From a virus: a DNA stretch of 64,000 bases. The stretch covers positions 288,001-352,000 of the IMG/VR virus record IMGVR_UViG_3300045988_180880. One strand, written 5' to 3'. Position 1 is the first letter of the stretch. The number at the start of each line of letters is the position of its first letter. Of the stretch, positions 537 through 38,953 are shown one piece after another. A program made the position numbers and the translations under genes. Below the pieces are notes generated by a model. The model did no database searches and had not been told where the DNA came from. It saw only the letters and a program-made list of their open reading frames with translations.

Positions 537-720
537 TAAAATTTGTCGGATTAGATAAATAAAATCTAATGGAACTTTGTAAATTGCTGGAAGATCAAGT
601 AAAGATAAATCAGCAAAAGATAGTAAAAACTACCTTCTCAACGACTAGATACAAAGAGAGAGTTTATATATAAATTCTTAAAGATATAGTCTAGTTTAAC
701 TAAATAATTGTTAATATTCG
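537..720 (+). ncRNA. Group I self-splicing intron, family A, ORF-less (A1)
   Basis: Group I core: P1 CCGAU/GUCGG with U.G, P2 ATTAGA/TCTAAT, P3 CTTTGTA/TACAAAG, P4 TGCTG/CAGCA, R TCTCAACGACTA, S GATATAGTCT (683-692). Terminal G720, P10 TTT/AAA. Removal joins ..LNTD|KSVPLE.. in frame. Confidence 0.8.
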
Positions 721-1039
721 AAAAGTGTCCCTCTAGAGACAATGAACGAATTATGCGCTCGATTACAGAAACTTGCAAACAATACGAATGAGTTGTCTTC
801 ATTCATCACATCTCAGTTCGATGTCACCTCGTTCATTGAGTCTGCATTAACTCAAAATGTTAAGGTTTTTCCTGACTATAATAGTACCATTACCTCAAGG
901 ACTTCACTACTCCCACTTGATAAATTAACAGACAAACTTTTAGATCTTATACAGAATCTTGATTATGTAAGAAATAGTGTTCTTTCTCCTCTTGGATTAC
1001 CATCTACTATATTAGATGGAACATCTGGCAGTAAGTGGT
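721..1039 (+). CDS. Portal-like morphogenesis protein, exon 2
   Basis: Same frame as ORF-track 742..1074. It ends 1 nt into a codon at AAGTGGT| (GGU pairs with GCC guide). Contains the stretch SPLGLPSTILDGTSGSKW. Confidence 0.45.
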
Positions 1040-1228
1040 TAATAAATTGGCCGTCTAGAGAAGCAATTCTTTAGATAATTAGTAAGTAAATTTGGTGAAA
1101 CTATTAATACTAGTAATACCAAGCCTTAGATTAATCTAATTAAGGTATAACGAATAAAGACTTACCAACTTATAAAAAGTTGAATTTATATTCTAAACTA
1201 TAATAAAAAGATTATAGAGATATCATTG
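1040..1228 (+). ncRNA. Group I self-splicing intron, family B, ORF-less (B1)
   Basis: P3 GTAAGT/ACTTAC, P4 TTGGT/ACCAA, perfect P8 hairpin. The core and 3' tail (TTCTAAACTATAATA..ATTG|) closely match the terL intron. The splice makes codon T|CA and restores the frame (phase 1 on both sides). Confidence 0.7.
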
Positions 1229-1656
1229 CAGTACTTCAACAGTCAGAAAGAGCTAATTCAAGAGTAACATCATTAATTTCAGGAATAAAAGATTCAATAG
1301 TAAATCTTGTTTGTAGTATTTATAAGGTAATATATAATGAAGATTTAGATCCAAGTTTAGTTCAAATTCATATATTCCAGAAAACAACTGTAGAGTATAA
1401 CAATCAGATAAATGAAGCTGAATCAGTTAGTGGTTTAGTTCAAGGTATCTCTGGAGTTTTATCTAATGCACTCCAAACTTTAGAACAAGCAACTCCATTA
1501 ATTGAACCAGAATCATATTTAAGTTATATTCAAAACTTACTTAAAGATATTGACCCAAGTACAGAATCTCTAATAAATGAAGATACGATTAAGCAGTATA
1601 TAGAATTTCTTAATCAAAAACTTCAGGCACAACGAGAACAGCTTGGACTCAGTTAA
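1229..1656 (+). CDS. Portal-like morphogenesis protein, exon 3 (C-terminus)
   Basis: An open frame of 142 codons with no ATG, absent from the ORF track. It reads ..VLQQSERANSRV...QAQREQLGLS* and is only reachable by splicing. Confidence 0.5.
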
Positions 1657-1671
1657 AATTATTCAAAGAAG

Positions 1672-2037
1672 ATGATAATTAAACGTAAATTATTTGCTTC
1701 TAATGATCCCACTCCAGAACAGTCTCCAGAAATTGGTCTAGCTAAACAAGAAATGACTTCTAAGGACTTGCAAATAGAACAAATGAGACTTCAACGTCAA
1801 ATCCTAGAAACTCAGAGAATGCGACAGAGAATGCAAGCTGAGGAAAGAATGCAAGAAATGAAGCAAGTCAATCAAACTCAGAAACTAGAACAGAAAAAGG
1901 ATGAAGCTCAAAAAGATAATCAATTAAAAGTAAAGAAAATTGACGCTCAGAATAGTAGGCAGGAAGTAAATAATATAGGATTGTACAAAACAAAATCAAA
2001 GCCTACGCCAACAGTATCAATGAAAACAAACTTGTAA
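1672..2037 (+). CDS. Leader-tagged (MIIKRKLFA) Q/E/R/M-rich coiled-coil protein
   Basis: ORF track. N-terminal family leader, then charged heptad-like sequence. Confidence 0.6.
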   Translation: MIIKRKLFASNDPTPEQSPEIGLAKQEMTSKDLQIEQMRLQRQILETQRMRQRMQAEERMQEMKQVNQTQKLEQKKDEAQKDNQLKVKKIDAQNSRQEVNNIGLYKTKSKPTPTVSMKTNL

Positions 2038-2130
2038 GATTATGATTAAAGAAAAGACATTTACAGAAGGAGTGGAAGATTCTAAAGAACAAGAAGAGAA
2101 AGGATTTGATCCACTAAGACCGTATATAAA

Positions 2131-2364
2131 ATGAAAATTAAAAGATTTTCCGGTTATTCAGAAGCTGCCCCTGAAGGTGTAACTTATCAAAAATCAAGTC
2201 AGGTAATTACAAGATATATTCTTGATCCTCTTGATTCTAGTGTAGATACCTTAGAAGAAACAGATAAACTTGGGGTAACTAAACGAAAGAGTGATAGAAT
2301 TAAGAAGGTAATAAAACCTCTTAAAAAATATTTTAAATATAAATCAAATAAAAACAGTAATTAA
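2131..2364 (+). CDS. Leader-tagged (MKIKRFS) small basic protein
   Basis: ORF track; its ATG overlaps the upstream mini-ORF stop (ATGA). Confidence 0.55.
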   Translation: MKIKRFSGYSEAAPEGVTYQKSSQVITRYILDPLDSSVDTLEETDKLGVTKRKSDRIKKVIKPLKKYFKYKSNKNSN

Positions 2365-2366
2365 GT

Positions 2367-2951: not shown

Positions 2952-2960
2952 AAGAAATAA

Positions 2961-2995
2961 TCTATAGAGGTAGTGTAATCAATCTCCTCTATAGA
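2961..2995 (+). terminator. Stem-loop after CDS 2367..2951
   Basis: 10-bp perfect stem TCTATAGAGG/CCTCTATAGA with a 15-nt loop; no clear T-run follows. Confidence 0.35.
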
Positions 2996-3614: not shown

Positions 3615-3805
3615 TAATATATCTGCGGCTTAGTTGAAATACTAAGAAAATTATACTAAAATGCTGAAAGATAGTTAAAACATAAATCAGCAAAAAGGAT
3701 TACTAATATAAATCCTTTCTCAACGACTAAATGTATAACTAAATTTGAAATATAATTTAGATGATATAGTCTAATTTAATAAAATAAATATTAAAAATAG
3801 ATATG
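3615..3805 (+). ncRNA. Group I intron, family A (A2)
   Basis: P2 CTTAGT/ACTAAG, P GCTGAAAG, Q AATCAGCA, P6 AGGATT/AATCCT, R TCTCAACGACTA, P8 CTAAATT/AATTTAG, S GATATAGTCT (3763-3772). Terminal G3805, P10 TCT/AGA. The splice removes an in-frame TGA. Confidence 0.8.
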
Positions 3806-4144: not shown

Positions 4145-4192
4145 AAGTTTTATGATATTTTCTGATTTATATTTCATAATTAAATCAGAATT

Positions 4193-4266
4193 GCCTCTTT
4201 AGCTCAGTTGGCCAGAGCACGTGATTTGTAATCTCGGGGTCGTTGGTTCGAATCCGACAAGAGGCT
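4193..4266 (+). tRNA. tRNA-Thr: tRNA-Thr (anticodon TGT)
   Basis: Hand-folded cloverleaf: acceptor GCCTCTT/AAGAGGC, D arm GCTC/GAGC, anticodon loop TTTGTAA, T arm GTTGG-TTCGAAT-CCGAC. Confidence 0.85.
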
Positions 4267-4277
4267 CAAAAATAATA

Positions 4278-4350
4278 TTCTCCGTTAGCTCAGAGGCAGA
4301 GCATTTGACTGTTAATCAAAGGGTCGGTATATCGTAATTACCACGGAGAG
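4278..4350 (+). tRNA. tRNA-Asn: tRNA-Asn (anticodon GTT), atypical T arm
   Basis: Acceptor TCTCCGT/ACGGAGA is perfect; D arm GCTC/GAGC; anticodon stem TTTGA/TCAAA with loop CTGTTAA. The T arm (GGTA-TATCGTAAT-TACC) lacks the canonical TTCGAAT. Confidence 0.55.
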
Positions 4351-4358
4351 CTGTTTTA

Positions 4359-4443
4359 GGAGAGGTGGCAGAGTGGTCGATTGCGGCGGTCTTGAAAACC
4401 GTTGTACTGCGAGGTACCCGGGGTTCGAATCCCTGTCTCTCCG
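4359..4443 (+). tRNA. tRNA-Ser: tRNA-Ser (anticodon TGA), class II
   Basis: Acceptor GGAGAGG/TCTCTCC, anticodon loop CTTGAAA, long variable arm, T arm CGGGG-TTCGAAT-CCCTG. Confidence 0.85.
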
Positions 4444-4488
4444 CAATAATTTTAAAGATAAGAAAAATTATAAAAAAAACAATTAATT

Positions 4489-5286: not shown

Positions 5287-5368
5287 TGTGTGATACTCAA
5301 GTGGTTAACGAGGATAGACTGTAAATCTATTAGCTTTGCTTTCGGGAGTTCGAATCTCTCTCACACAA
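5287..5368 (+). tRNA. tRNA-Tyr: tRNA-Tyr (anticodon GTA), class II
   Basis: Acceptor TGTGTGA/TCACACA, anticodon stem ATAGA/TCTAT with loop CTGTAAA, long variable arm, T arm GGGAG-TTCGAAT-CTCTC. Confidence 0.8.
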
Positions 5369-5388
5369 CATAAAATAAAATTATAAAT

Positions 5389-6956: not shown

Positions 6957-7167
6957 AATGTAGTATAAAAAGTTGCCCTCCATATTAAGAAATTATATGG
7001 TAATAAAGTAAGTAAATTCGGTGAAAGGATAATCCCAATACCGAGTCAAGGATCTTAGATAAATCTAAGTAATCTTTGATGTAACGAATAAAGACTTACT
7101 AACTTATATAATTATATAAGTTAAATTTATATTCTAAACTATAATAGAGTATTATAGAAATAGATTG
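6957..7167 (+). ncRNA. Group I intron, family B (B2)
   Basis: P3 GTAAGT/ACTTAC, P AAATTCGGTGAAA, Q AATACCGAG, P8 AACTTATATA/TATATAAGTT. 3' tail TTCTAAACTATAATAG..GATTG|, as in B1. Joins ..SGPRG|AGGLGTDLIF. Confidence 0.7.
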
Positions 7168-9219: not shown

Positions 9220-9291
9220 TGAACTATAGTATAATTGGCAATACACCAGATTTTGGTTCTGGGATTTCCTGTTCGAGTCAGGATAGTTCAA
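9220..9291 (+). tRNA. tRNA-Gln: tRNA-Gln (anticodon TTG)
   Basis: Acceptor TGAACTA/TAGTTCA, D stem GTAT/ATAC, anticodon stem CCAGA/TCTGG with loop TTTTGGT, T arm TCCTG-TTCGAGT-CAGGA. Confidence 0.8.
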
Positions 9292-9322
9292 CGAAAGAAA
9301 ATAATAATAACTAATAAAAACT

Positions 9323-9648: not shown

Positions 9649-9721
9649 CGAGATGTAGTTCAGTAGATAGAACGCTTGGTTTGGGACCAAGAAGTCGCAC
9701 GTTTGAGCCGTGTCATCTCGA
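9649..9721 (+). tRNA. tRNA-Pro: tRNA-Pro (anticodon TGG)
   Basis: Acceptor CGAGATG/CATCTCG, D stem GTTC/GAAC, anticodon stem CTTGG/CCAAG with loop TTTGGGA, T arm GCACG-TTTGAGC-CGTGT. Confidence 0.8.
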
Positions 9722-9878
9722 CCTAGATAAATAGACGATGAGATATCGTGGAATTACTAACATGAATTATAAACCTTTAGGAAGAGTAAAAGTCGCGAGT
9801 TACTCTTCCACTACTAAGGATGACATGTTAATAATACAAGGATAGTTTGATATCTCGGGAAGCTATAAAATTTAATTC

Positions 9879-11327
9879 ATGATAGATACTAAATTATTAC
9901 CAGTACCTTTAGAGTATTCTTGTCCAATAGTAATGAGAGTAAAACTTCCCAGAAGAAATGATAGTGGGAGATTAAACTATTATACGTATGTTCCAGAATT
10001 AGGTACTTGGGTATTAGAAAAGATGAGAAATTCAGTTTTTAAGAAATTACAAAAATTAAATATAACTTTTAGGGACTGGGAAAATAGATGGTTACTTAAA
10101 TTACAACCATCTGATATGTATTCAGAACTTTGGGTAGATAAAATAATAGAAGTTTATTATAAAGATAAATTACCAAATACAAAAAGTTATATAAAAGATC
10201 AATTATTGTTAGATAATGATTATGTATTTACGGGTGTTATGGTTAAAGAGGATTTAATGGATATATTTATTAAATCTCGGGAGGGTAGTTTTATAGACAT
10301 AGTATATAATTATGATTTAGTACCTAAAATAATCGAAAAACTTACAGATGAAATATGTTTACAGTATTTAAATGATAATAATGAATATGAAAAATACTAT
10401 ACTACGTATTCAGATTTTATTTCAAGAGGGCTAAATTGTAGGTATTATGCTGCTAAACTTAGAAAAATAACGCTTAGTAATAAAGAATATCATTCGAGTA
10501 GATTAAAGACAACAGAAGCTTATATTACAGAATCAAAAGCTAAGTTTGGAGAAAATTCCTTTGAATATTTATCTGAATATACTGGAAGAATTGATAAAAT
10601 GACTTTTAAATGTAATAAGTGCGGAACAACTTTTTCGGTTTTAGCAAAAACACATTTAGAAAGTTCTCATGGTGGGTGTCCAGTTTGTAATACTAATTCT
10701 ATAAAAGAAGATAGAAAGTTTTCTAATCAAGACTTTCAAAATAGGTTGGATAATATTTATGGAATTGGAAAGTATAAGTTAATATCTAACTTTATCAATT
10801 GCAAGACTACTGTGGAAATTTTAGATCTTGAAACAAATACTATATTTAAACAAGATCCAGAGAATTTATTATATCATGGACTTACAGATCCTAGTACTGT
10901 TACTAAATCAAAGGGAGAACGATTAGTAGAGCTTTGGATTAATAAAAATTCAGATAAAATATTGGATTATAAGTGGAATACTAAAGTAAGTGGAATAGAG
11001 GGCAGGTGTAGAGATTATGTTATGATTGATTTTATTATTAACTATGGTGGGAAAACCATATGGATTGAATATAATGGAATTCAGCATTATACATATTTTT
11101 CACTATATCACAAATATGATAAAAATCTTTTTGATGACCAAAAAAGAAGAGATGAAAATGTAAGAATTTATTGCAAACAGAATAATATAATGTTGGTAGA
11201 AATTCCTTACACTATAAGTTCTTTTAAAAGAGTTTCTGAATTTTTAAATAAAGTAGTTTTTGAAAATATTGATCCAAGTACTTTAGTAGATTATAATCTT
11301 TTATATGAAACTACAAAAGGAAAATAA
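9879..11327 (+). CDS. Free-standing homing-endonuclease-like protein (Zn-ribbons plus Vsr/DUF559-like PD-(D/E)xK C-domain), paralog 1
   Basis: CNKCGTTF..GGCPVCN, and C-terminus DFIINYGGKTIWIEYNGIQHY..DDQKRRDENVRIYCKQNNIMLVEIPY. Paralogous to 26877 and 39120. Ends 20 nt before the 3-intron protease gene. Confidence 0.6.
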   Translation: MIDTKLLPVPLEYSCPIVMRVKLPRRNDSGRLNYYTYVPELGTWVLEKMRNSVFKKLQKLNITFRDWENRWLLKLQPSDMYSELWVDKIIEVYYKDKLPNTKSYIKDQLLLDNDYVFTGVMVKEDLMDIFIKSREGSFIDIVYNYDLVPKIIEKLTDEICLQYLNDNNEYEKYYTTYSDFISRGLNCRYYAAKLRKITLSNKEYHSSRLKTTEAYITESKAKFGENSFEYLSEYTGRIDKMTFKCNKCGTTFSVLAKTHLESSHGGCPVCNTNSIKEDRKFSNQDFQNRLDNIYGIGKYKLISNFINCKTTVEILDLETNTIFKQDPENLLYHGLTDPSTVTKSKGERLVELWINKNSDKILDYKWNTKVSGIEGRCRDYVMIDFIINYGGKTIWIEYNGIQHYTYFSLYHKYDKNLFDDQKRRDENVRIYCKQNNIMLVEIPYTISSFKRVSEFLNKVVFENIDPSTLVDYNLLYETTKGK

Positions 11328-11347: not shown

Positions 11348-11569
11348 ATGAAATTTATTGCAAAATTGTTTTCGACAATGCTACCTGCATCTGACAGTAG
11401 TATGATACCTCGAGATGTTGCGGAATCTTTCTTTAGTAGCCAAGAGTTTAAACAAGCCTTAGAGGATAGAAAGCTCTTTGGAACATTAACACACTTAGCC
11501 AGAAATCTATCATCTGCCAAAAATGGTGGTCCTGCAGTATCTAAGACTATAGGGAAAGATGATCTCCTT
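11348..11569 (+). CDS. T4 gp21-like prohead protease, exon 1
   Basis: Begins MKFIAKLFS (leader-like). FGTLTHL aligns with T4 gp21 LGELNHP (catalytic His). Donor CTCCTT| (CCUU pairs with GAGG, directly before P2). Alternative donor at 11576. Confidence 0.55.
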
Positions 11570-11760
11570 TATTGCTAATAATGAGAGGCATAGATAAAAA
11601 GTTTATGAAAATGTTTTTAATTGCTGGAAAAAATAATAAATTAAATCAGCAAAAATAGATAATAAAATCTATTTCTCAACGACTAGAGTAAACACTAAGA
11701 ATACCGATTAATTCTTAGATAATATAGTCTATTATTGATTTTAAAATCAATTAGGTTAAG
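11570..11760 (+). ncRNA. Group I intron, family A (A3)
   Basis: P2 CATAGA/TTTATG, P AATTGCTGGAAA, Q AAATCAGCA, P6 ATAGAT/ATCTAT, R TTCTCAACGACTA, S AATATAGTCT. 3' end at G11760; alternative G11770. Confidence 0.7.
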
Positions 11761-11949: not shown

Positions 11950-12132
11950 TAATTAACTGAGACTTAAGAAATTCATAAGTTCTTAAGAAAATTTCATAAA
12001 ATGCTGGAAAGGTTAGAATCAAATCAGCATCATCTAGCAGATAGCGAGATGTTCAACGACTAAAGATGGAACCTAGATTTTTAGGATAATATAGTCTAAA
12101 TTTAATAGCAAGCAATATATTAAAAAAAATTG
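11950..12132 (+). ncRNA. Group I intron, family A (A4)
   Basis: P1 TCUU/GAGA, P2 CTTAAGAA/TTCTTAAG, P AAATGCTGGAAA, Q AATCAGCA, R GTTCAACGACTA, S AATATAGTCT. G12132 is the only in-phase G; tail ends AATTG|. Confidence 0.8.
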
Positions 12133-12756: not shown

Positions 12757-12930
12757 AAATAATATGCGTTTTTTATATGAATTGCTGGAAATATCTAAAT
12801 GAGATAAATCAGCATCAAATCATACTTAGATAAATCTAAAGAAGTGATTTGTTCAACGACTATGTATATAAACTGTCAAAATAGACAGAAGATATAGTCT
12901 AAATTATAAATAAATTTTATAAATACATTG
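12757..12930 (+). ncRNA. Group I intron, family A (A5)
   Basis: P AATTGCTGGAAA, Q AAATCAGCA, R GTTCAACGACTA, S GATATAGTCT (12891-12900). Tail ends CATTG|, P10 TAT/ATA. Phase 0 on both sides. Confidence 0.8.
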
Positions 12931-23901: not shown

Positions 23902-25909
23902 ATGGCACAATGGACTGAAACTCTCGAACCGTATGTAAAAGTTATAGAGAGAGTACATACCGCAGCTCTTAATCCTACTGCAGGTGAAAGTTTAATTATC
24001 GGAGTGACTTTAATTTCTGATGCAGGCCCAGCAGTTCCTACACTGATCTCTAGTCAATCTGAATTCTTAAAAACTTATGCTTCAGGGGACTTAACAGAAG
24101 ATTATATGGCATCCTTGAATAATCTTTATCATGATGCTAATAATACAGGAGATAAAAATGTAGCTGCAACAATGTGGATGAATGCTTATAGATTGGCTGG
24201 CTCTAATGTTATGCTGGTTTGTAGAGCATCTAAAGCTAACGATATCTACTACGCTAAACCCATGACTAAAACTGATTATAGTACATATATCCTTAGAGAT
24301 GGTGCTTTAATGAAGGGATTTAGAGATGCTGATAAAGGTGTCGTTAAGTTTGTTCTTGATATTGATGGTGATGATGCAGAACATGATCAAGATGGATGGT
24401 CAATTAATTTGAATGGAGTAGGTATTCTTGGTAATCGTACCACCGATGATGGTCCTCAATATGATTACTATGTAAGAACTCTCCCCGACTTAGTAAATCA
24501 AATGAATGAAACTAATAAATTCTTCTCTCCATCTTATAAATTCTTCACAGATCCTAATAATATCATCTCTGAAAATGAAACAACTGATCCCGATAAAGCA
24601 AAGGCAGTTGTATTCTATGAACTTTATCTAGGACAGGATATGCTAGATACTTCAGACTCTAGATGTCCACTAGGAAAGCAGTATATCGTGATTTGTGAAC
24701 CTGATTGGACTAGTGATAATCCTAATCAAAAACTTATAGATATTAATGCTTCCGCTTGGTCTGGTTTCGAAGAACAGAAATATTATGCAGTTAATCAATA
24801 TAACTCTAATACTGATCTGAGAGTTAGAATTAGACGTTTTAATCATGATGCAGTAGTTACCAAAGAATTAACTAACCCCGCTTTGAACGAAAACTCTGAT
24901 TCTCCTTATATGGTACTATCGGCCGTTCTAGATACCTATACTAAGAAAGGAACAGTAGAACCGTCAGAAAGTATCCTACAGCGAGATTTTTATGAAGTCG
25001 CTGTTCTTGATCCTAATATTTCTGACGAAGTACAGTTCTTTAATATAGGTAAAGTAACCGGCCGTGGAGATATGGAAGTATCAGAACTCAATGAACTCCT
25101 AAGTATGATTCAACTTCAACTCCCTGACGATATGAGAGAGCTTGGATTGAACTACTATGGATACGGAGCTGATGATAAAGTATGGGTAGAACTTGATCCT
25201 AATGACCCAAATGCAGGTTCTTATAAGCAAACAGTTTCTTCAATGACTGATCTTTACAACTCAATAGGTATGTCAGTTGGAGATGTTTACCGAGTTGGAT
25301 CTGGAAGTTCATATAAGTACTATGAATATCAAGAAAATGGTGGAGATCAAGTTTATGCAAAATTAGGCGTAGATCCAACTGAAACAGATATTCTTGACGT
25401 ATCTGAATCGGATCTTAAGAAAGCACTTGACGAAATCAATATTCAGGAAATTTATGTGGTTGAAGGATTATGTGACCTTGGAAATACATCACTAAGTTTC
25501 CAGAATTACTTGGCTAATATGGCTATCAACTCTAACTATTTCTATCCAATATCAACAGTTCAGAGCACAAATTATATGACTATCGCTAATAATGCAACTA
25601 AGATAGCACAAGATTCATATAAACTCTATCTATCTGCACCTTGGGATATCGACTCTGGTACATTTGGATGGAAATATTATTGCTCACCTGCTGTTGTTTA
25701 CTGGGAAGCTGTAGCTAGAAACCGTAGAAATAATGCAGAATTTGCTCCTGTACTTGGACAAACTAATGGTATTGTTCAGTATCAGAGACCTATGACAGAG
25801 TTTAATAAAAAAACTCGTCAACTTCTATTATCTAAACGAGTAAATACTGTACTCTGGAATTATCAAACTAATGCTTGGAACATGAATGATAAACAAAATT
25901 GTCCAATTT
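23902..25909 (+). CDS. Tail sheath protein, exon 1
   Basis: 670-aa ORF with a sheath-like N-terminus (GVTLISDAGPAVPTLISSQSEFLKTY) and C-region (SPAVVYWEAVARNRRNNAEFAPVLGQTNG..LLSKRVNTVLW). Donor AATTT| (pairs with GAAT), phase 1. Confidence 0.7.
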
Positions 25910-26098
25910 ATTGAAATTGAATTTTTATGAACTGCTGGGATTTATATAAAAAAAATAAAAATCAGCAAAAAGGATTACTAATATAAATCCTTTCTCAACG
26001 ACTAAGTATAAAAGATAAATAAATTTTATTATTTTTCAAGATATAGTCTAGCGAAATTACCAAATAATTTTCTAAAACGAATTATACTAAGCAAAGTG
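25910..26098 (+). ncRNA. Group I intron, family A (A6)
   Basis: P3 TTTTAT/ATAAAA, P AACTGCTGGGA, Q AAATCAGCA, P6 AGGATT/AATCCT (same as A2), R TCTCAACGACTA, S GATATAGTCT. G26098 is the only phase-compatible terminal G. Boundaries +/-20 nt. Confidence 0.7.
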
Positions 26099-26331
26099 TG
26101 GATAATATTGTTTCAGATGAAGGTAACTCTCGTTTAGCTATTCGTATCTCAAAAGCTATGCCTGTACTACTTAAACAGTATATAGGCTGGAGAATTGCAC
26201 CAAAACTATGGGAAAGTGCGATTGGAACTATCGATTACTGGTTTAAATCAACTATTCTCCCAATGTCTTATAATATCGATGATTACCGTATTATCATCGA
26301 TGAGACAAATAACCCTGTTCAAATTCAGCGT
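26099..26331 (+). CDS. Tail sheath protein, exon 2
   Basis: ..DNIVSDEGNSRLAIRISKAMPVLLKQYIGW...IIIDETNNPVQIQR. Donor CAGCGT| (GCGU pairs with GCGC). Confidence 0.65.
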
Positions 26332-26510
26332 AAATAATTGCGCCTTGGATTTTTATATTACCAAGAAAAATAAGAGAATTGCTGGAAGATAATAAAATAA
26401 ATCAGCAAAGAAAGTTTACAAAAATTTTCTCTCAACGACTATGTACTTATTAAAATGATATAGTCTGATCTTAAATATTAATCTTATATTTAAGTTTAAC
26501 AATAATGCAG
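26332..26510 (+). ncRNA. Group I intron, family A (A7)
   Basis: P2 CTTGG/CCAAG, P AATTGCTGGAAG, Q AAATCAGCA, R TCTCAACGACTA, S GATATAGTCT, P9 CTTAAATA/TATTTAAG. Terminal G26510, P10 ATT/AAT. Joins IQR|NKMVVNV. Confidence 0.8.
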
Positions 26511-26569
26511 AATAAAATGGTGGTTAACGTTTTGGTTAGATACCAGAGAGCTTTGAAATATGTCATCGT
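26511..26569 (+). CDS. Tail sheath protein, exon 3 (59-nt mini-exon)
   Basis: NKMVVNVLVRYQRALKYVI, typical of a sheath C-terminal strand. Donor ATCGT| (UCGU pairs with GCGA), phase 2. Confidence 0.6.
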
Positions 26570-26737
26570 AAAGTATATGCGATTATTATACCAATTGCTG
26601 GAACTTAATAAATCCAAAGAATCAGCAAAAATAGATATAATTCTATTTCTCAACGACTAGATGTATAATTAAAATTTCATGAAGATTTTAAAAGATATAG
26701 TCTGAACATGAGTAGATAATACTTAGCAAACATATTG
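26570..26737 (+). ncRNA. Group I intron, family A (A8)
   Basis: P3 TATAC/GTATA, P AATTGCTGGAAC, Q GAATCAGCA, P6 ATAGAT/ATCTAT-like, R TCTCAACGACTA, S GATATAGTCT. Tail ends TATTG|, P10 TAT/ATA. Confidence 0.8.
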
Positions 26738-26816
26738 ATATCACGACATTTTCGACGTTGGTATGCAACTTGCAGTCTCAGAGTACGAAGATACTAGAGG
26801 AGCAGCCCTTGAATAA
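26738..26816 (+). CDS. Tail sheath protein, exon 4 (C-terminus)
   Basis: GT|A junction codon, then YHDIFDVGMQLAVSEYEDTRGAALE*. A genomic TGA lies just upstream, so it is only reachable by splicing. Confidence 0.55.
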
Positions 26817-26876: not shown

Positions 26877-28175
26877 ATGCAAAAATTTACAAAAGATGAA
26901 ATAATATATAATATTATTTCAAAATTAACTAAAGATATTGAATTCCTAGGATTAGAAAACTATTCAAAAGATATATCTACAAAAAAATTAAAAATTATTT
27001 TAAGATGTAAATTACATAATATAAGTAAAATTATAAAATATTCTAGTTTTATATTAAATGGATGGCATTGTCCTGAATGTTCAAAAATAAAAAGAACACT
27101 TCCAGAAAATATAGCAATAGAAAGAATACAAAAATCCATATTAAAGAAAAATAATGAAGGGAGTAATATATCTTTTTTAGGATTTGTAAATTTTTGGAAA
27201 GGCTCATCAACAAAATTGATTTTAAAATGTAATATTCATAATATTATTTGGAAAACAACGACCTATAATGGATTTATTTCGAATAATTTAATTGGTTGTC
27301 CTGAATGTTCAAAAGAAAGAAAAAAAAGAAAATTAACTAATTTAGAAGCAGAAAATAATATAATCGAATTTCATAAATCATCTTCTACAAATGAATCGTC
27401 AATATTTTGTAATATTCATAATAGCTACACAGGTTATAATTCTCCAGTTGAATTAGTTTGTTATAAACATGGAAAATTTTCATGTTATTATAGTTATTTA
27501 ATGACTGATAAAAGTAGAAATATTATACTATGTCCTAAATGTAGAGAATTATTTGAACGTGAACAGGAAAAGAAAAGATATCATAACTTAATAATAGATA
27601 GAGTAAATCATTTAAATAAAAAATATAATATATCTTTAGAATTTTTAGGATTTAAAGAAGAATTTAATTATCAAAATACATATCTAATACTAAAATGTAA
27701 TATTCATAATCATATTTGGGATACTACTAGACTAGGTATATTTTTAAAACATGAAGGAAAATACTGTATATATTGTTCAAAAACTAGTAGTATTTCGTTT
27801 ATGGAAAATTCTTTATACTCTATTTTAAATAGTTATTATTTAAACATAATTCGTCAATATAAATTAATAATAAATAATAGAATATTTTATTTAGATTTTT
27901 ACATACCAAAATTAAATGTAATAATAGAGTATGATGGAAAACAACATTATGAATTTACTTCTTTCTTTCAACCCACATATCAAAATTTCGTAAATCAAGT
28001 TAACCGAGATAGATGTTTAGAACAATATTGCAAAGAAAATAATATAAAACTTCTTCGAATTTCTTATAAAGACAATAATAGAATCCCTGAAATCATAAAG
28101 ATATTTTTCGAAGAAGGAAAAGATATAACAACAAAAGTAGAACCTAAATTATTACCAGTATTATATCATGGATAA
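26877..28175 (+). CDS. Free-standing homing-endonuclease-like protein (Zn-ribbon repeats plus Vsr/DUF559-like domain), paralog 2
   Basis: Repeated CPECSK/CPKC ribbons. C-terminus LDFYIPKLNVIIEYDGKQHYEF..VNRDRCLEQYCKENNIKLLRISY. Starts 61 nt after the sheath gene. Confidence 0.6.
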   Translation: MQKFTKDEIIYNIISKLTKDIEFLGLENYSKDISTKKLKIILRCKLHNISKIIKYSSFILNGWHCPECSKIKRTLPENIAIERIQKSILKKNNEGSNISFLGFVNFWKGSSTKLILKCNIHNIIWKTTTYNGFISNNLIGCPECSKERKKRKLTNLEAENNIIEFHKSSSTNESSIFCNIHNSYTGYNSPVELVCYKHGKFSCYYSYLMTDKSRNIILCPKCRELFEREQEKKRYHNLIIDRVNHLNKKYNISLEFLGFKEEFNYQNTYLILKCNIHNHIWDTTRLGIFLKHEGKYCIYCSKTSSISFMENSLYSILNSYYLNIIRQYKLIINNRIFYLDFYIPKLNVIIEYDGKQHYEFTSFFQPTYQNFVNQVNRDRCLEQYCKENNIKLLRISYKDNNRIPEIIKIFFEEGKDITTKVEPKLLPVLYHG

Positions 28176-34300: not shown

Positions 34301-35090
34301 CCCATTTATTACTACTCCAGATAAATTTACCTCAACTGGATATTCAGATTATAGAACTCAAACATTAGATACTAATGCATACTGGGAAGTTGTTTTAGAA
34401 CCCTATGTAGGTCCTGAAAATGGAAATCTTAATTATCTTCCTGGAATTCATGAAATCAATACTAGAAATATAGCTCAACACGGAGTAAATACTGCTTATA
34501 ATAGATGGATTCCTTATGTTAGTTTTGATCTTCAAAAATCTAAATTAACAAATAAAACACTCAATCTATATGATGGTGAAATCAGTTATCCTGTTTCAAT
34601 GGAATTTACTAATGAATTTAGATTAACTATAGCTGACGATCAATATAAGTCTTGGAGACGATATTTTGAAGAATGTGCTAAAGCTGCAATTTATAATAGT
34701 GAAGGACATGATGAATCTTATTATAAAGAAGGCGGTACTGAAGGAGTTTTAGGATTAACTGCAATAGATACTAATAACGTATGTATTGCTATGTATAAAA
34801 ATATATGCTTCAGATGTAGAATATACGTTATGACACCGCAATATAGTACAATTCAAAAATTTGATTTACTTTTAGTAATGAAAGATTTTTCTGAAGAATA
34901 TACAGGAGATATTGGAGATGGTGCAGGAGATCTTACAGTATCATTTAGTATTGTAGGAGAGAATCCAAATGAAGGAGAAATTCCAAAAGTTAAAGTAATA
35001 CAGCATAAAGCTCCTGATAATTCTTCAAAAACGGATTATGGTTCTATAGTAGAAAGTGGAGTAAATTCAGTAATGAAACTAATTAAATAA
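31398..35090 (+). CDS. Large virion protein with Glu/Leu-rich tandem repeats and globular C-terminal domain
   Basis: 1230-aa ORF. The N-terminal ~600 aa is made of degenerate LED/ENL repeats. Confidence 0.55.
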   Translation: MRERNIENEILKQNKIPGCDQLTRPEEVKALSKYLKSIRTTQENHTSLEKDNLELPGRTTGRIPEINSLEDHVEGLDGIRGVKNLYKESSRISLSDDQGEKIPTGLYTEKSRENLEDKRKIFLENKREDLKNTLEDPKLEKHRENLDTDSSGIDELNKEKVNLEGVRDVRNLYINTKEKLKVPEEDLKLGKEKESLIDNHNPELDLTRIDLEGFRDLSYKEQLEVDSKNELDTTRISLKKTTENPELSNHKENLKKTPEELDKLGSYKESLGNVEDKLEELNGTKVKLRNPVSDIELSKTKVSLERTAEDKELETYRENLKKTPEELDKLENHKESLRSGEELENLPKDKIALEGIAETLEELGNTRIDLDGTEESEIFTLEDYRENLSVEDNNSLEDKRIDLEDTKESEPKALEDERIDLNGTKESEISTLEDYRENLSVEDNNSLEDTRIDLTGTKEAEVSELEDYLDELDNTKDYEASELEDTRIDLTGTKEAEPESLEDKRIDLEDTEEYESSSLEDERINLESTEEFEPGSLEDFIDKLEDSRDTELEDEILELPETSGDEYEGYNPLGPDELDSLGGNINNFYDSLLEVPETGDAPRQSGDYTPLGPEELDSLGGDLGNFYDSILEVPEDTEHIIEELNDDIKEKIPEAQVDESQKDWKYLKELTEDDLYKETIRLLSEKEAGEWGKKMQSLVSAYLSSEAISPDRAEEYINKLGKEILIQQESSRVEGPSMKLPKFGLESLNLSNYLRWTAEKTIGWTGVHGSARQLLLNETIAALVVARDELEKLSKSNRYRLPGNDRGLLGDLVSGGVSGALDNLGDKLGDAVNTIVGSKSVDISNPINRPEKNEHRDGWEEGNIRPSGSNPFLPTQSHSEFSQKEGNLLSKITKSSGSSGDSNKFWKKVGSAAKDMLLGSSSGETTYKFKSNYVSGKGINITLEELCGISGTDDANTVEGLYNVLKSSPFITTPDKFTSTGYSDYRTQTLDTNAYWEVVLEPYVGPENGNLNYLPGIHEINTRNIAQHGVNTAYNRWIPYVSFDLQKSKLTNKTLNLYDGEISYPVSMEFTNEFRLTIADDQYKSWRRYFEECAKAAIYNSEGHDESYYKEGGTEGVLGLTAIDTNNVCIAMYKNICFRCRIYVMTPQYSTIQKFDLLLVMKDFSEEYTGDIGDGAGDLTVSFSIVGENPNEGEIPKVKVIQHKAPDNSSKTDYGSIVESGVNSVMKLIK
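31560..33310 (+). repeat. Degenerate coding tandem repeats (LEDxRIDLxGTKExE and similar)
   Basis: Duplicated blocks: ENLKKTPEELDKL (2 copies), TLEDYRENLSVEDNNSLED (2 copies), (Y)xPLGP(D/E)ELDSLGG..NFYDS(L/I)LEVPE (2 copies). Confidence 0.7.
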
Positions 35091-35099
35091 AATAAGATT

Positions 35100-37454: not shown

Positions 37455-37462
37455 TAAAAACT

Positions 37463-37602
37463 ATGGCAAGCGTAGCAAGTTTAGTCCGCGGAAGTGACGG
37501 ATACATGAAATTTATTGACTATCAAAGTACATATAAAGATAATAATAAAGAATTCCTTCGTGGTGACATGTGGGAACTTCAATTCATTAATGTACCTAAG
37601 AT
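37463..37602 (+). CDS. Tail tube protein (T4 gp19-like), exon 1
   Basis: MASVASLVRGSDGYMKF..FLRGDMWELQFINVPK. Donor CTAAGAT| forms a 7-bp P1 with GTCTTAG (U.G at the site), phase 2. The genomic frame stops 16 codons later. Confidence 0.65.
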
Positions 37603-37763
37603 AAATAATTGTCTTAGTAAAACTTTGTAAACTGCTGGAAGATCAAGTAAAGATAAATCAGCAAAAATAGATAAAAAATCTATTTCTCAACGACTATTAG
37701 CAAAGAAAAGAAATAGCCATAGATTTCTTTTATGATATAGTCTAAACATAGAACAAATGTTTG
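37603..37763 (+). ncRNA. Group I intron, family A (A9)
   Basis: P3 CTTTG/CAAAG, P AACTGCTGGAAG. The 5' half is nearly identical to A1. P6 ATAGAT/ATCTAT, R TTCTCAACGACTA, P8 AAGAAAT/ATTTCTT, S GATATAGTCT. Terminal G37763. Confidence 0.8.
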
Positions 37764-37965
37764 AGTTTATTTCCCTGGTACTGATATTTTCAATGCTAGA
37801 TTAAATGCCGTTCAGGTAGGTATTGATTATAGTGTATCAGGTTTTGAAAAGAGAATGCGTGGTAATTATACTATCATTCAGAAGACAGGTCAAAACACAG
37901 CTGGAACCCTGTCGTTGGCTTTTGTAGATAAGGAAGATCAGGCAATTACTTACTGGTTTGATAAT
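37764..37965 (+). CDS. Tail tube protein, exon 2
   Basis: AT|A junction codon, then VYFPGTDIFNARLNAVQVGIDYSVSGFEKRMRGNYTIIQK..AFVDKEDQAITYWFDN. Donor GATAAT| (pairs with GTTGTC). Confidence 0.6.
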
Positions 37966-38182
37966 TTAAAAGTTGTCCATTAAGAGATTAAAAGTTCCTT
38001 AATGAATCTTTGTGAACTGCTGGAAATTTTAATCGCTCAAGAATGATAAAAACTAAGAGCGGAAAAATAATCAGCAGAAATAGATATGATTCTATTTTTC
38101 AACGACTAAGTACAAAGAAAGAGGATAAGCCATAGTTCCTCTTATGATATAGTCTAGTATGATTTAAAACAAAAACCATAAG
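37966..38182 (+). ncRNA. Group I intron, family A (A10)
   Basis: P2 CATTAAG/CTTAATG, P3 CTTTG/CAAAG, P AACTGCTGGAAA, extended P5, Q TAATCAGCA, R TTTCAACGACTA, S GATATAGTCT. 3' end at G38182 (alternative G38183). Confidence 0.7.
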
Positions 38183-38368
38183 GACTATCGCCAGAAAATT
38201 GCAGATCGTGATACTAAATATTCTTTCAGAAAGGATGACTTAGTATGCGACCTTAGATTAATCTTAACTAACTCAAGCCGTATCAAAGTTCGTACTCTTA
38301 ATTTCTATAACTGTATTCTTCAGGATGCACCGATTGATGAAAATGGGCAGACTGAGGACGGAACCGAT
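38183..38368 (+). CDS. Tail tube protein, exon 3
   Basis: DYRQKIADRDTKYSFRKDDLVCDLRLILTNSSRIKVRTLNFYNCILQDAPIDENGQTEDGTD. Donor CCGAT| (CGAU pairs with GTCG), as in A1. Confidence 0.6.
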
Positions 38369-38559
38369 TAATAGCTTAGTCGCTTAAATAATAAAATTTA
38401 AGAAAATTATACTAAAATGCTGGAAAAATCTTGGTTATACCAAGTATAAATCAGCAAAAACTATTAAAAATAGTTTCTCAACGACTAAATGTATAACTTA
38501 AGAAGTATTAATTCTTAAGATGATATAGTCTATAATATATTAATGTATATTAACAAATG
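38369..38559 (+). ncRNA. Group I intron, family A (A11)
   Basis: P2 CTTAAAT/ATTTAAG, P3 TTATAC/GTATAA, P AAATGCTGGAAA, Q AAATCAGCA, R TTCTCAACGACTA, P8 CTTAAGAA/TTCTTAAG, S GATATAGTCT, P9 TAATATA/TATATTA. Terminal G38559. Confidence 0.8.
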
Positions 38560-38583
38560 CGAGCAGATATCCAAGTCAGCTTT
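38560..38583 (+). CDS. Tail tube protein, exon 4 (24-nt micro-exon)
   Basis: RADIQVSF resembles T4 gp19 ..EIQTFEV. Donor GCTTT| (CUUU pairs with GAAG, directly before P2). Confidence 0.5.
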
Positions 38584-38764
38584 TTCAAATGAAGAAGCAT
38601 AAAGTAATATAAACTTTATGAAAAATTCTATTAAAATGCTGGAATATCAAATAGATAATCAGCAAAAATTAGAAAAGATCTAATTTCTCAACGACTAAAT
38701 ATAGAACTAAGTTTGAAATATAATTTAGATGATATAGTCTATTCATTGATAAAAATAATTAATG
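38584..38764 (+). ncRNA. Group I intron, family A (A12)
   Basis: P2 CATAAAG/CTTTATG, P3 TTCTAT/ATAGAA, P AAATGCTGGAAT, Q TAATCAGCA, R TTCTCAACGACTA. P8 is identical to that of A2. S GATATAGTCT. Terminal G38764 gives a consistent frame. Confidence 0.75.
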
Positions 38765-38785
38765 ACTTTAAAGCAATTTGAACAT
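38765..38785 (+). CDS. Tail tube protein, exon 5 (21-nt micro-exon)
   Basis: TLKQFEH resembles T4 gp19 TLALDYWE. It is bounded by independently predicted sites: G38764 and donor GAACAT| (pairs with GTGTTT). Confidence 0.45.
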
Positions 38786-38953
38786 TTTGGAAAATTTCAT
38801 GGTGTTTTCTACAAGAATTGCTGGAAAATTTGTATCTTTGTATACAAATAATCAGCATCCTAGATATTAACATAAATCTAGGTTCAACGACTATGTATGT
38901 AGACTGAGGAAATTCCTTAGGTGATATAGTCTGTCATGAGGTGAAATTCATTG
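38786..38953 (+). ncRNA. Group I intron, family A (A13)
   Basis: P3 TCTACA/TGTAGA, P AATTGCTGGAAA, Q TAATCAGCA, R GTTCAACGACTA, P8 GAGGAAATTCCTTAG, S GATATAGTCT (38923-38932). The 3' end is uncertain (candidate Gs at 38933-38964). Confidence 0.7.

What the first reader, a model, noticed from the sequence alone, without database searches (positions are those of the whole stretch)
537..38953. Fifteen ORF-less group I introns interrupt six essential morphogenesis genes
Every interruption of an otherwise continuous reading frame coincides with a 160-220-nt insert. The affected genes are the portal-like gene (2 introns), gene 3097 (1), terL (1), the gp21-like protease (3), the sheath (3) and the tube (5). 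Each insert carries the group I catalytic core: P4 TGCTG/CAGCA, R (T)TCAACGACTA and S GATATAGTCT forming P7, plus flanking P3 pairs. For most inserts I can pair the last exon U with a G of an internal guide immediately upstream of P2. I can also find a terminal G whose use restores the frame exactly, with donor and acceptor phases predicted independently and agreeing. None of the introns encodes an endonuclease. Roughly 2.8 kb of ribozyme sits within the first ~39 kb of the window. That density is far above the 1-3 introns typical of intron-bearing phages such as T4, Twort or SPO1.
Basis: partly seen in the sequence, partly recalled or inferred. Interest (0 to 1): 0.85.

Follow-up and report, generated by a model that had tools for sequence, protein, structure and literature searches.

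The report
Fifteen miniature group I introns, jumbo phage
Six virion-assembly genes of a human-gut jumbo phage are interrupted by fifteen very small self-splicing (group I) introns that come and go between near-identical strains; the call is correct, but intron-riddled genes in what is very probably this phage group ("Jug" phages) were published in 2025-26.

Summary
All 15 inserts exist (161-220 nt, 2,793 nt in total). Each follows an exon T and ends in G, and removing each one restores one continuous reading frame.

Nine or ten junctions are fixed to the base by natural intron-less alleles in related IMG/VR contigs. The rest are fixed by gap-free colinearity with uninterrupted homologs of the tube (195 aa), sheath (791 aa), protease-like (405-421 aa) and portal-like (555 aa) proteins.

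Thirteen inserts ("class A") carry the classical group I core, with strong covariation in P3, P6 and P8. Two ("class B", portal and terL) carry a variant P7.

Rfam RF00028 finds nothing at its gathering score, but gives sub-threshold hits (17-38 bits), almost all spanning the full model, for 11 of the 13 class A inserts when small regions are scanned.

Corrections:
- Sheath junction is 26331|26508, not 26511.
- The last intron ends at 38960.
- The sheath's first intron starts at 25891.
- The portal-like gene begins upstream of the window.

None of the introns holds an ORF. Three free-standing HNH genes adjoin the most intron-rich genes.

The window matches the published Jug phages (Chen et al., Sci Adv 2026), so the phenomenon is known. 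Possible extras are a 12-nt exon, P8-less cores, and at least 35 intron cores in one genome against the 18.5 per genome reported.

The parts
537..720 (+). Intron A1 (184 nt, class A) in the portal-like gene
   Evidence: R/S motifs. RF00028 38.3 bits, full length, E 5e-8 in a 1-kb scan. Empty site in Beta-like L028 and colinearity with its 555-aa ORF. P1 CCGAU/GUCGG.
1040..1228 (+). Intron B1 (189 nt, class B) in the portal-like gene
   Evidence: Empty sites in L011, L018, L025, L026 and L028. Ends ..CATTG like B2. RF00028 only 14.9 bits, partial. Boundaries inferred to within about one codon (W|SV against WQV).
3615..3805 (+). Intron A2 (191 nt) in gene 3097 (function unknown)
   Evidence: Empty sites in L008, L020 and L022. 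RF00028 18.5 bits. P1 GCCGU/GCGGC.
6957..7167 (+). Intron B2 (211 nt, class B) in terL, inside the motif SGPRG|AGGLG
   Evidence: Exact empty sites in L006, L014 and L028. MFE fold gives P2, P3, P4, P5, P6, P8 and P9, z = -4.2. P1 compensatory change between strain types: AGGGGU/GCCCU against AGAGGU/GCCUU.
11570..11760 (+). Intron A3 (191 nt) in the prohead-protease-like gene
   Evidence: No empty allele seen. The acceptor is fixed by uninterrupted homologs reading GKDDLL|LLIGE. RF00028 17.3 bits.
11950..12132 (+). Intron A4 (183 nt) in the protease-like gene
   Evidence: Exact empty sites in L003, L006, L014 and L021. RF00028 24.2 bits.
12757..12930 (+). Intron A5 (174 nt) in the protease-like gene
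   Evidence: Empty sites in L011, L012, L013, L015 and L023. RF00028 28 bits. Allele divergence switches exactly here.
25891..26079 (+). Intron A6 (189 nt) in the tail sheath gene
   Evidence: Empty in 25 loci. The junction NMND|NYTKQ is colinear with 791-aa homologs. The upstream ORF runs 21 nt into the intron. No RF00028 hit at E<=1.
26332..26507 (+). Intron A7 (176 nt) in the sheath gene; lacks a P8 hairpin
   Evidence: Exact empty sites in L046 and L082. Junction IQR|QNKM. RF00028 19.9 bits. Only 4 nt lie between P3' and J8/7.
26570..26737 (+). Intron A8 (168 nt) in the sheath gene
   Evidence: Junction YVIV|YHD is colinear with uninterrupted homologs and with L065. P1 AUCGU/GCGAU. RF00028 21.5 bits.
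37603..37763 (+). Intron A9 (161 nt) in the tail tube gene
   Evidence: Empty sites in L062, L086, L087 and L090. 7-bp P1. RF00028 29.3 bits.
37963..38182 (+). Intron A10 (220 nt, extended P5) in the tube gene
   Evidence: Empty sites in L082 and L090. RF00028 36.1 bits.
38369..38559 (+). Intron A11 (191 nt) in the tube gene
   Evidence: Junction GTD|RADIQ fixed by 25 uninterrupted 195-aa homologs. RF00028 29.9 bits.
38584..38773 (+). Intron A12 (190 nt) in the tube gene, after a 24-nt exon (38560-38583)
   Evidence: Junction VSF|QFEH. P1 GCUUU/GAAGC.
38786..38960 (+). Intron A13 (175 nt) in the tube gene, after a 12-nt exon (38774-38785)
   Evidence: Junction QFEH|YERTFDNI. P1 GAACAU/GUGUUU. 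RF00028 27.1 bits.
37463..38987 (+). Tail tube gene: 6 exons (37463-37602, 37764-37962, 38183-38368, 38560-38583, 38774-38785, 38961-38987) giving 195 aa
   Evidence: Gap-free alignment to 25 uninterrupted homologs. The AF2 model of the 90%-identical P0001 matches tail-tube folds, including T4 gp19.
23902..26816 (+). Tail sheath gene: 4 exons (23902-25890, 26080-26331, 26508-26569, 26738-26816) giving 793 aa
   Evidence: Colinear with 791-aa homologs. PHROG 23 tail sheath E 1e-8 for homolog P0123. Its model matches chains of the T4 portal-neck-tail entry 9mkb and the KP1 sheath, E 1e-7.
9879..11327 (+). Free-standing HNH homing-endonuclease-like gene, 20 nt upstream of the protease-like gene
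   Evidence: PHROG 559, 9084 and 7140.
26877..28175 (+). Free-standing HNH homing-endonuclease-like gene, 60 nt downstream of the sheath stop
   Evidence: PHROG 559 E 1e-41. Replaced by at least 5 divergent alleles (35-100% identity) in other strains.
39036..39962 (+). Free-standing HNH homing-endonuclease-like gene, 48 nt downstream of the tube stop
   Evidence: PHROG 559 E 3e-35. Pfam DUF4379 zinc finger.

Best explanation
[quoted passage not shown] The phage is very probably a group Alpha 'Jug' phage.

Structure (shown from sequence). Each intron folds into the group I core. A 3-7 bp P1 forms between the last exon bases, ending in U, and an internal guide 9-19 nt into the intron. P2 is optional. 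The core comprises P3, P4, a short P5, P6, P7 and P8 (absent in A7), followed by P9 and a terminal G.

Splicing (inferred from group I chemistry). Guanosine-initiated transesterification excises the intron from the mRNA and joins the exons. This restores intact portal-like, gene-3097, terL, protease-like, sheath and tube reading frames, including across tube exons of only 24 and 12 nt.

Two structural classes. Class A (13 introns) has the classical R/S core UCAACGACUA / GAUAUAGUC. Class B (2 introns) has P7 GAAUA/UAUUC and targets ..GGU| sites.

Population behaviour (shown). The introns are polymorphic among 97-100% identical strains, and other strains carry introns at further sites in the same genes.

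Mobility (inferred, about 0.4). The introns spread during co-infection by DNA-level gene conversion, triggered in trans by the free-standing HNH endonucleases that flank the protease-like, sheath and tube genes ('collaborative' or trans homing). Intron insertion would then protect the cleavage site. Reverse splicing is the alternative route to new sites.
For: Sequence features:
- Motif enrichment and fixed spacing.
- 15 of 15 inserts follow a U, end in G, and have a G.U-closed P1.

Exact excision:
- Precise intron-less alleles in related contigs for 10 introns.
- Spliced proteins are colinear with uninterrupted homologs at every junction: tube, sheath, protease-like, portal-like.

RNA structure:
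- Covariation on 81 distinct cores: P3, P6 and P8 are 94% paired against 59% shuffled, with up to 4 pair types per position. P4 and P7 are invariant.
- RF00028 aligns, mostly full length, at 17-38 bits to 11 of 13 class A introns.
- Class B shows the same helix order, a z = -4.2 fold, and compensatory changes in P1, P4, P6 and P8 among 17 variants.

Mobility:
- Site polymorphism, with extra sites in other strains: terL 6707 and about 7190; sheath 25726, 26237, 26289 and about 26550.
- Three HNH genes directly adjoin the three most intron-rich genes.
- HNH alleles co-vary partly with intron sets.

Literature:
- Jug phages carry about 206-nt group I introns. 37 of 76 predicted introns were supported by metatranscriptome reads, including terL (PMC12880540).
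- The trans/collaborative homing concept (PMC3984707, PMC2790892).
Against: - No RNA or biochemical data exist for these particular introns.
- RF00028 does not reach its gathering score for any of them. It gives nothing for A6 and A12, and only 14.9 bits (partial) for B1; B2 was never scanned with the permissive small-region settings.
- A7 and related cores lack P8, a helix normally part of the conserved core. Splicing competence of that subclass is therefore inferred only from its high frequency in an essential gene.
- Several P1 helices are only 3-4 bp.
- For mobility, the cleavage sites of the HNH enzymes are unknown.
- At five sites the intron-less alleles have identical exon flanks, so no co-conversion tract is visible.
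- HNH allele and intron pattern are only loosely linked.
- Membership of the window in the Jug clade is inferred, not shown from a membership table.
Confidence: 0.9

Rival explanations
1. The inserts are non-splicing repeated insertion elements (MITE- or REP-like). They have split the genes into fragments that are translated separately and assemble as split proteins.
For: The inserts form repeat families. The published paper itself speaks of 'fragmented' genes and leaves open whether fragments are 'spliced or cotranslated'. RF00028 does not reach its gathering score.
Against: - Tube exons of 24 and 12 nt cannot be independent genes.
- Downstream pieces generally lack start codons in frame.
- Boundaries obey U|...G and P1 pairing.
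- Core helices covary.
- Excision is exact to the base in natural alleles.
- Spliced terL reads are reported for Jug phages.
Confidence: 0.03
2. [quoted passage not shown]
For: Small size (161-220 nt). The paper's own wording cites Einvik et al. 1998.
Against: - From general knowledge, GIR1 ribozymes lie inside twin-ribozyme introns. Here each element stands alone between two coding exons that must be joined.
- All have a P1 with U.G at the 5' splice site and a terminal G.
- RF00028, a splicing-intron model, aligns end to end.
- The exons are colinear with intact homologs.
Confidence: 0.03
3. The introns are real and do splice, but their spread is RNA-mediated (reverse splicing into sites complementary to the guide, then reverse transcription and recombination) or simply general recombination between co-infecting strains. 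The neighbouring HNH genes would then be independent selfish elements.
For: - Nearly identical cores sit at many different sites with different guide sequences.
- A1 and A11 both sit after ACCGAU, with guides GUCGG and GUCG.
- All class B introns sit after GGU with guide GCC...
- Five intron-less alleles have identical exon flanks.
- Cores are mosaic between introns (families D8-D19).
Against: - No reverse transcriptase was seen in the window.
- Reverse-splicing mobility has no direct experimental support (PMC3984707).
- At A2 and A6 the exon flanks of intron-plus and intron-minus alleles differ by 4.6-7.5%, as expected for co-conversion.
- HNH genes are immediately adjacent to the three most intron-rich genes.
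Confidence: 0.3
4. The interruptions are assembly or sequencing artefacts, or are bypassed at the protein level (inteins, ribosomal hopping).
For: The sequence comes from a metagenomic assembly. Inteins are also reported in Jug phages.
Against: - The same inserts recur base-for-base in dozens of independent contigs from several samples.
- Every insert carries stop codons in the exon frame and is too short and AT-rich (20-31% GC) to encode an intein.
- RNA-level covariation is not expected for inteins or hops.
Confidence: 0.01

Closest known systems
Group I introns of Jug (jumbo gut) phages: Chen, Camargo, Koonin et al., Sci Adv 2026 (PMC12880540; preprint PMC12363816)
   Same: - Human-gut jumbo phages of 360-402 kb, about 30% GC, T4-like.
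[quoted passage not shown]
- terL of all Alpha genomes split into 2-3 pieces; portal and prohead protease 'fragmented'.
- Hundreds of mostly stand-alone HNH genes.
- Splicing supported by metatranscriptome reads for 37 of 76 introns.
- The terL relationships of my related contigs (84% and about 60% identity, with 95-100% identical sheath) reproduce their Beta and Gamma pattern.
- Related contigs 3300045988_180488, _180056 and _181267 are in their huge-phage table.
   Different: - The paper gives counts only (18.5 per genome, cmscan E<=1e-4) and interprets the small size as 'group I-like ribozymes'.
- Its main text does not describe intron structure, classes, the sheath and tube introns, micro-exons, P8-less cores, or site-by-site polymorphism.
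- In one of their listed genomes I find 35 intron cores in only 86 kb of 378 kb.
- Membership of this window in their Table S3 could not be checked.
Phage T4 td / nrdB / sunY group I introns and T4 mobE trans-homing (PMC2790892)
   Same: - T4-like host phage.
- Classical R/S core sequences (subgroup IA-like; this assignment is from my own knowledge, not tested).
- A free-standing HNH (mobE) can mobilise a neighbouring intron in trans.
   Different: - From general knowledge, the T4 introns are few (3), about 0.6-1 kb, mostly carry their own endonuclease ORF, and sit in nucleotide-metabolism genes.
- Here 15 introns of 161-220 nt, without ORFs, sit in structural genes.
Collaborative homing: the ORF-less psbA intron plus free-standing F-CphI in cyanophage S-PM2 (Zeng, Bonocora & Shub 2009; reviewed in PMC3984707; PMC6083498)
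   Same: [quoted passage not shown] The endonuclease targets the intron insertion site.
   Different: That case has one intron and one enzyme with a demonstrated cleavage site. Here there are 3-5 introns per gene, polymorphic HNH alleles, and no cleavage data.
Staphylococcus phage Twort multi-intron genes (three introns in orf142, two in nrdE; own knowledge, plus ref. B115 in PMC3984707)
   Same: Several small ORF-less group I introns within one phage gene.
   Different: Twort introns are about 250-430 nt and number a handful per genome. No 12-nt exons or P8-less cores are known to me.

Membership tests
Group I intron | Conserved core helices in the order P3-P4-(P5)-P4'-P6-P6'-P7-P3'-P8-P8'-P7' (P3/P7 pseudoknot), supported by covariation | tested here: met
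   81 distinct class A cores. P3 is 93.6% paired, P6 93.8% and P8 95.2%, against 57-64% in shuffles. There are many two-sided changes; P4 and P7 are invariant. Class B has the same order, with compensatory changes. Exception: A7 and 7 related variants have no P8.
Group I intron | 5' splice site after a U that forms a G.U wobble at the end of P1 with an internal guide sequence | tested here: met
   15 of 15, with P1 of 3-7 bp and the guide at +9 to +19. An exon/guide compensatory change is seen at the terL site.
Group I intron | Terminal guanosine (omega-G) as the last intron base | tested here: met
   15 of 15. For B2, A4, A7 and A10 the boundary is fixed without ambiguity by empty alleles.
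Group I intron | Precise excision restores a functional exon sequence | tested here: met
   Intron-less alleles and gap-free colinearity with uninterrupted homologs.
Group I intron | Match to the curated covariance model Rfam RF00028 at its gathering score (50 bits) | tested here: not met
   No hit on 64 kb or 40 kb. Scans of 0.35-1.7 kb give alignments at 17.3-38.3 bits (E 5e-8 to 0.16), almost all full-length, for A1-A5, A7-A11 and A13. There is no hit for A6 or A12, and 14.9 bits (partial) for B1. B2 was not scanned in a small region.
Group I intron | Guanosine-dependent self-splicing of the transcript | not testable with these tools
   The only support is published metatranscriptome evidence for Jug phage introns in general.
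Jug phage clade (Chen et al. 2026), group Alpha | Human-gut huge phage of 360-402 kb and about 30% GC. More than 90% nucleotide identity among Alpha, Gamma and Delta despite 38-57% TerL identity; Beta has about 82% TerL identity | tested here: met
   The window is about 31% GC. Related contigs reach 362-378 kb, come from the human digestive system, and have 29.7-31.3% GC. TerL relatives at 84% identity (L028) and at 61-63% identity (L024-26) have sheaths 95-100% identical.
Jug phage clade (Chen et al. 2026), group Alpha | Listed in the authors' Table S3, or more than 90% identical to a named Jug genome (e.g. huge_phage_8026 = IMGVR_UViG_3300029336_000001) | not testable with these tools
   Table S3 is not held. 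The named exemplar did not appear in any of my viral-contig scans. Related contigs are only shown to be in their larger huge-phage collection.
Collaborative (trans) homing system | ORF-less intron plus a free-standing homing-endonuclease gene adjacent to the interrupted gene | tested here: met
   HNH-like ORFs at 9879-11327, 26877-28175 and 39036-39962 lie 20-60 nt from the protease-like, sheath and tube genes.
Collaborative (trans) homing system | [quoted passage not shown] | not testable with these tools
   Indirect evidence only: partial linkage of HNH alleles with intron sets, and mixed evidence for co-conversion of flanks.

The most novel reading that the evidence does not exclude
The published count badly underestimates the intron load. 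A single phage species would carry an 'introner-like' population of at least 35 miniature (about 160-220 nt), ORF-less group I introns per genome. These introns would be actively moving among dozens of sites in near-clonal strains. They include cores that function without P8 and tandem introns separated by exons as short as 12 nt. They would be driven in trans by a polymorphic set of free-standing HNH endonucleases, in an intron/endonuclease arms race between co-infecting strains. That would make these among the smallest natural splicing-competent group I ribozymes, and a natural system for studying intron gain and loss in real time.
Probability: 0.3. Interest if true: 0.7.

Novelty: already known. 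Interest (0 to 1): 0.45.

Why it matters
The core claim is real: essential phage genes are densely interrupted by tiny self-splicing introns. It matters for gene calling, because every one of these genes is mis-annotated as fragments. It also matters for using terL, portal or sheath as markers. But it was reported for what is very probably this phage clade in 2025-26.

Three things go beyond that report and deserve follow-up:

1. Standard covariance models at normal thresholds miss most of these introns. Published intron loads are therefore probably about two-fold too low; I find 35 cores in 86 kb of one genome.
2. The introns approach the lower size limit for group I ribozymes. A recurring subclass has no P8, and some exons are only 12-24 nt. 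Both are direct tests of what a minimal splicing core and minimal exon context are.
3. The dense presence/absence polymorphism beside variable free-standing HNH genes gives a natural population in which trans-homing and reverse splicing can be told apart.

Tried and rejected
- Megablast and tblastn against the INPHARED phage collection: no match.
- Pfam on exon pieces and on all six spliced proteins: nothing.
- PHROGs on the portal-like, protease-like and gene-3097 proteins: nothing.
- phmmer or profile searches against PDB sequences for sheath, tube and the protease-like family: nothing meaningful. 'Portal' and 'gp21-like protease' therefore remain unverified.
- My first splice-site choices, based on ORF ends and best P1, were wrong for A6, A8, A10, A3, A11 and A12. 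They were corrected using empty alleles or homolog alignments.
- The MAFFT alignment of the 13 introns was off-register in P3 and P8, so no covariance model was built. An anchor-based structural alignment scored in Python was used instead.
- I looked for further introns in 39-64 kb. The ORF-free gaps there are minus-strand genes or intergenic, with no RF00028 hits in 41.4-44.7 kb.
- I tried to tie the window to a named Jug genome through the paper's supplements. Only the wider collection table is held.
It cannot give genome-wide counts.

Full report
**1. What is in the sequence**

The window is AT-rich (about 31% GC). Apart from a few small minus-strand genes between about 41.7 and 44.1 kb, it is coded almost entirely on the + strand.

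The decamer TCAACGACTA occurs 13 times exactly, all on the + strand, against 2.5 expected at up to 1 mismatch. Each copy is followed 35-45 nt later by (G/A)ATATAGTCT. Upstream of each lies TGCTG...ATCAGCA. These 13 'class A' inserts sit exactly where otherwise continuous reading frames break.

Two more frame breaks, at about 1040-1228 and 6957-7167, lack those motifs but resemble each other ('class B'). Its statement that every insert carries the same R and S elements is right for 13.

**2. Exact boundaries**

Three scans of IMG/VR with neighbouring proteins returned 90 loci from jumbo-phage contigs of up to 378 kb. Most are 97-100% identical to the window. These strains differ in which introns they carry.

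Precise empty sites fix the following junctions:
- 6956|7168
- 11949|12133
- 12756|12931
- 25890|26080
- 26331|26508
- 37602|37764
- 37962|38183
- 3614|3806
- 536|721
- approximately, 1039|1229

The remaining junctions were fixed by protein colinearity:
- The six-exon tube product (195 aa) aligns without a single indel to 25 uninterrupted 195-aa homologs. This includes the 24-nt and 12-nt exons.
- The four-exon sheath (793 aa) is colinear with uninterrupted 791-aa proteins at NMND|NYTKQ, IQR|QNKM and YVIV|YHD.
- The four-exon protease-like protein matches 405-421-aa homologs. This moved the A3 acceptor to 11760.
- The portal-like exons match an uninterrupted 555-aa ORF in a more distant relative.

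All 15 introns follow a T and end in G. All have a G.U-closed P1 with a guide sequence 9-19 nt downstream of the 5' splice site. Lengths are 161-220 nt and total 2,793 nt.

26331|26511 is one codon off. The sheath's first intron begins 21 nt before the end of the upstream ORF. The last intron ends at 38960.

**3. Are they group I introns?**

Rfam RF00028 gives no hit at its gathering score, nor at E<=10 on 40 kb. Scanned in 0.35-1.7 kb pieces, it aligns over its full length to A1-A5, A7-A11 and A13 at 17-38 bits, with E down to 5e-8. It finds nothing for A6 or A12, and aligns only partially to B1. The sub-threshold scores reflect the absence of peripheral elements in very short, AT-rich introns.

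Independent structural evidence is strong. From the window and the loci I collected 449 class A cores, of which 81 are distinct.
- With fixed registers, P6 pairs at 7.5 of 8 positions with its own partner, against 4.3 of 8 with partners from other introns.
- In an anchor-based structural alignment, P3, P6 and P8 are 94% paired. This compares with 59% after shuffling partners and 44-49% with slid partners. There are up to four pair types per position and many two-sided changes. P4 (UGCUG/CAGCA) and P7 (GACUA/UAGUC) are invariant.
- A caveat: the P3 and P8 registers were chosen within 1-2 nt to maximise pairing. The P6 register was fixed beforehand.

The helix order, with P7 interleaved with P3, is the group I core.

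Class B has the same order, with P7 GAAUA/UAUUC. It shows compensatory changes in P4, P6 and P8 among 17 variants. It also shows an exon/guide double change at the terL site: AGGGGU/GCCCU against AGAGGU/GCCUU. Its fold has z = -4.2.

**4. The genes**

- The tube assignment is supported by an AlphaFold model of a 90%-identical homolog. The model matches tail-tube proteins, including T4 gp19, at probability 1.0. There is also a weak PHROG hit.
- The sheath assignment is supported by PHROG 23 (E 1e-8) and by fold matches (E 1e-7) to about 650-residue chains of the T4 portal-neck-tail entry and to the KP1 sheath. The model itself is of modest confidence.
- terL has only a weak PHROG hit.
- 'Portal-like', 'gp21-like protease' and gene 3097 gave no family or PDB match. 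Those names rest on gene order and on the statement in the literature that portal and prohead protease are fragmented in this clade.
- The portal-like gene is truncated by the window start. In a contig identical at that point, the exon continues 310 nt upstream. It is preceded there by another, P8-less, intron core and an endonuclease-like ORF.

**5. Endonucleases and mobility**

Three HNH homing-endonuclease-like genes stand free, 20-60 nt from the protease-like, sheath and tube genes. These are the three genes with 3, 3 and 5 introns.

Across strains, the HNH slot downstream of the sheath gene is occupied by at least five alleles, 35-100% identical. Intron sets are mosaic and only partly linked to the allele.

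Other strains carry introns at further sites:
- terL: 6707 and about 7190
- sheath: 25726, 26237, 26289 and about 26550
- tube: at least two more

The protease-like gene exists as two allele types. They are 44-60% identical up to residue 347 and 97% identical after it, switching exactly at intron A5.

Exon flanks give mixed evidence for co-conversion. Intron-less alleles are identical to the window at five sites but 4.6-7.5% different at A6 and A2.

This pattern fits DNA-level spread during co-infection with trans-acting endonucleases, known as collaborative or trans homing (PMC3984707, PMC2790892). It does not exclude reverse splicing. I put the trans-homing step at about 0.4.

**6. What is known**

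A full-text search found Chen et al., Sci Adv 2026 (PMC12880540; preprint August 2025). They describe 'Jug' phages as follows:
- 360-402 kb, about 30% GC, T4-like, from the human gut.
- 2,513 group I introns in 136 of 139 genomes (18.5 per genome, mean about 206 nt).
- terL split in all Alpha genomes; portal and prohead protease fragmented.
- Mostly stand-alone HNH genes.
- Metatranscriptome support for 37 of 76 introns.

My related contigs reproduce their distinctive pattern: TerL at 84% or about 60% identity beside 95-100% identical sheath genes. Three of these contigs are listed in their huge-phage collection as human-gut genomes of 292-378 kb. I could not see their membership table, so clade membership is inferred at about 0.9.

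The phenomenon is therefore already published. The paper's main text does not analyse intron structure, and it reads the small size as 'group I-like ribozymes'. The present evidence does not favour that reading.

**7. What may go beyond the paper**

In the 86 kb I hold of one of their listed genomes (IMGVR_UViG_3300045988_180488, 377.8 kb), the core motifs occur 35 times. Eighteen of these lie in a second hot spot at 239-254 kb. This suggests the published counts are too low, for the same reason that RF00028 fails here. These are motif counts, not individually verified introns.

A subclass without P8 accounts for 70 of 449 cores and occurs at three or more sites, including A7 in the sheath gene. 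Exons of 12 and 24 nt between introns are also unusual and directly testable.

**8. Verdict**

- Observation: confirmed, with small coordinate corrections.
- Interpretation: supported.
- Novelty: already known for this phage group.
- Interest: moderate, because of the probable undercount, the minimal cores and the population-level mobility signal.

Noticed in passing
window 1-536, and L001 1789-2832 (upstream of the window start): The portal-like gene is cut by the window edge. In L001, which is identical at the window start, exon 1 extends 310 nt further upstream. It is preceded there by another class A, P8-less intron core (L001 2462) and a Zn-finger/HNH-like ORF (L001 1789-2280). The ATG at 93 is therefore not the true start.
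   Followed up: partly
window 26332-26507 (A7); also L070 1167, L001 2462, L011 4749 and 4988: A recurring subclass of class A cores has only 4-5 nt where the P8 hairpin should be. It accounts for 70 of 449 occurrences, in 8 variants at 3 or more sites. It sits at high frequency in essential genes.
   Followed up: partly
window 38560-38583 and 38774-38785: Micro-exons of 24 and 12 nt lie between consecutive group I introns in the tube gene. In other strains (L065, L086, L087) a different 12-nt exon (ACTGAAGATGGT) lies between two class B introns.
   Followed up: yes
IMGVR_UViG_3300045988_180488, contig positions 239281-253711 (L147): A second intron hot spot lies outside the window's region, with 18 intron cores in 14.4 kb. 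There are 35 cores in the 86 kb held of this 378-kb genome, against the 18.5 per genome published.
   Followed up: partly
window 11348-13137, compared with L001 14437-16023: The protease-like gene has two allele types. They are 44-60% identical over residues 1-347 and 97% identical after residue 345. The switch coincides with the intron A5 insertion site, suggesting recombination or co-conversion boundaries at introns.
   Followed up: partly
window 26877-28175 and the same slot in L029-L060: The HNH gene downstream of the sheath gene is replaced in other strains by at least five alleles of 35-100% identity at the same position. Each is associated with partly different intron sets in the sheath gene.
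   Followed up: partly
window 4193-4444, 5287-5369, 9220-9292, 9649-9723: Six tRNA genes (Thr-TGT, Asn-GTT, Ser-TGA, Tyr-GTA, Gln-TTG, Pro-TGG) are interspersed among the packaging and head genes.
   Followed up: no
window 44100-44330: A locally GC-rich stretch with strong inverted repeats (e.g. CACCCCTTTGGCCTCTGGGGGCCAGGGGTGGTG) lies in an ORF-free region next to minus-strand small genes. It may be a structured RNA or a terminator cluster. There is no Rfam match.
   Followed up: no
window 14057-16414 and 31398-35090: There are long in-frame imperfect tandem repeats inside two large ORFs. One has about 340-nt units in a 785-aa acidic protein downstream of the protease-like gene. The other has 54-153-nt units in a 1230-aa protein.
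   Followed up: no
Viral-contig scan, L091-L193: The exact R...S pattern TCAACGACTA-N20-50-ATATAGTCT also occurs in many unrelated IMG/VR contigs, including giant-virus MAGs (GVMAG). The core sequence is the generic group I consensus, not a marker of this phage.
   Followed up: no
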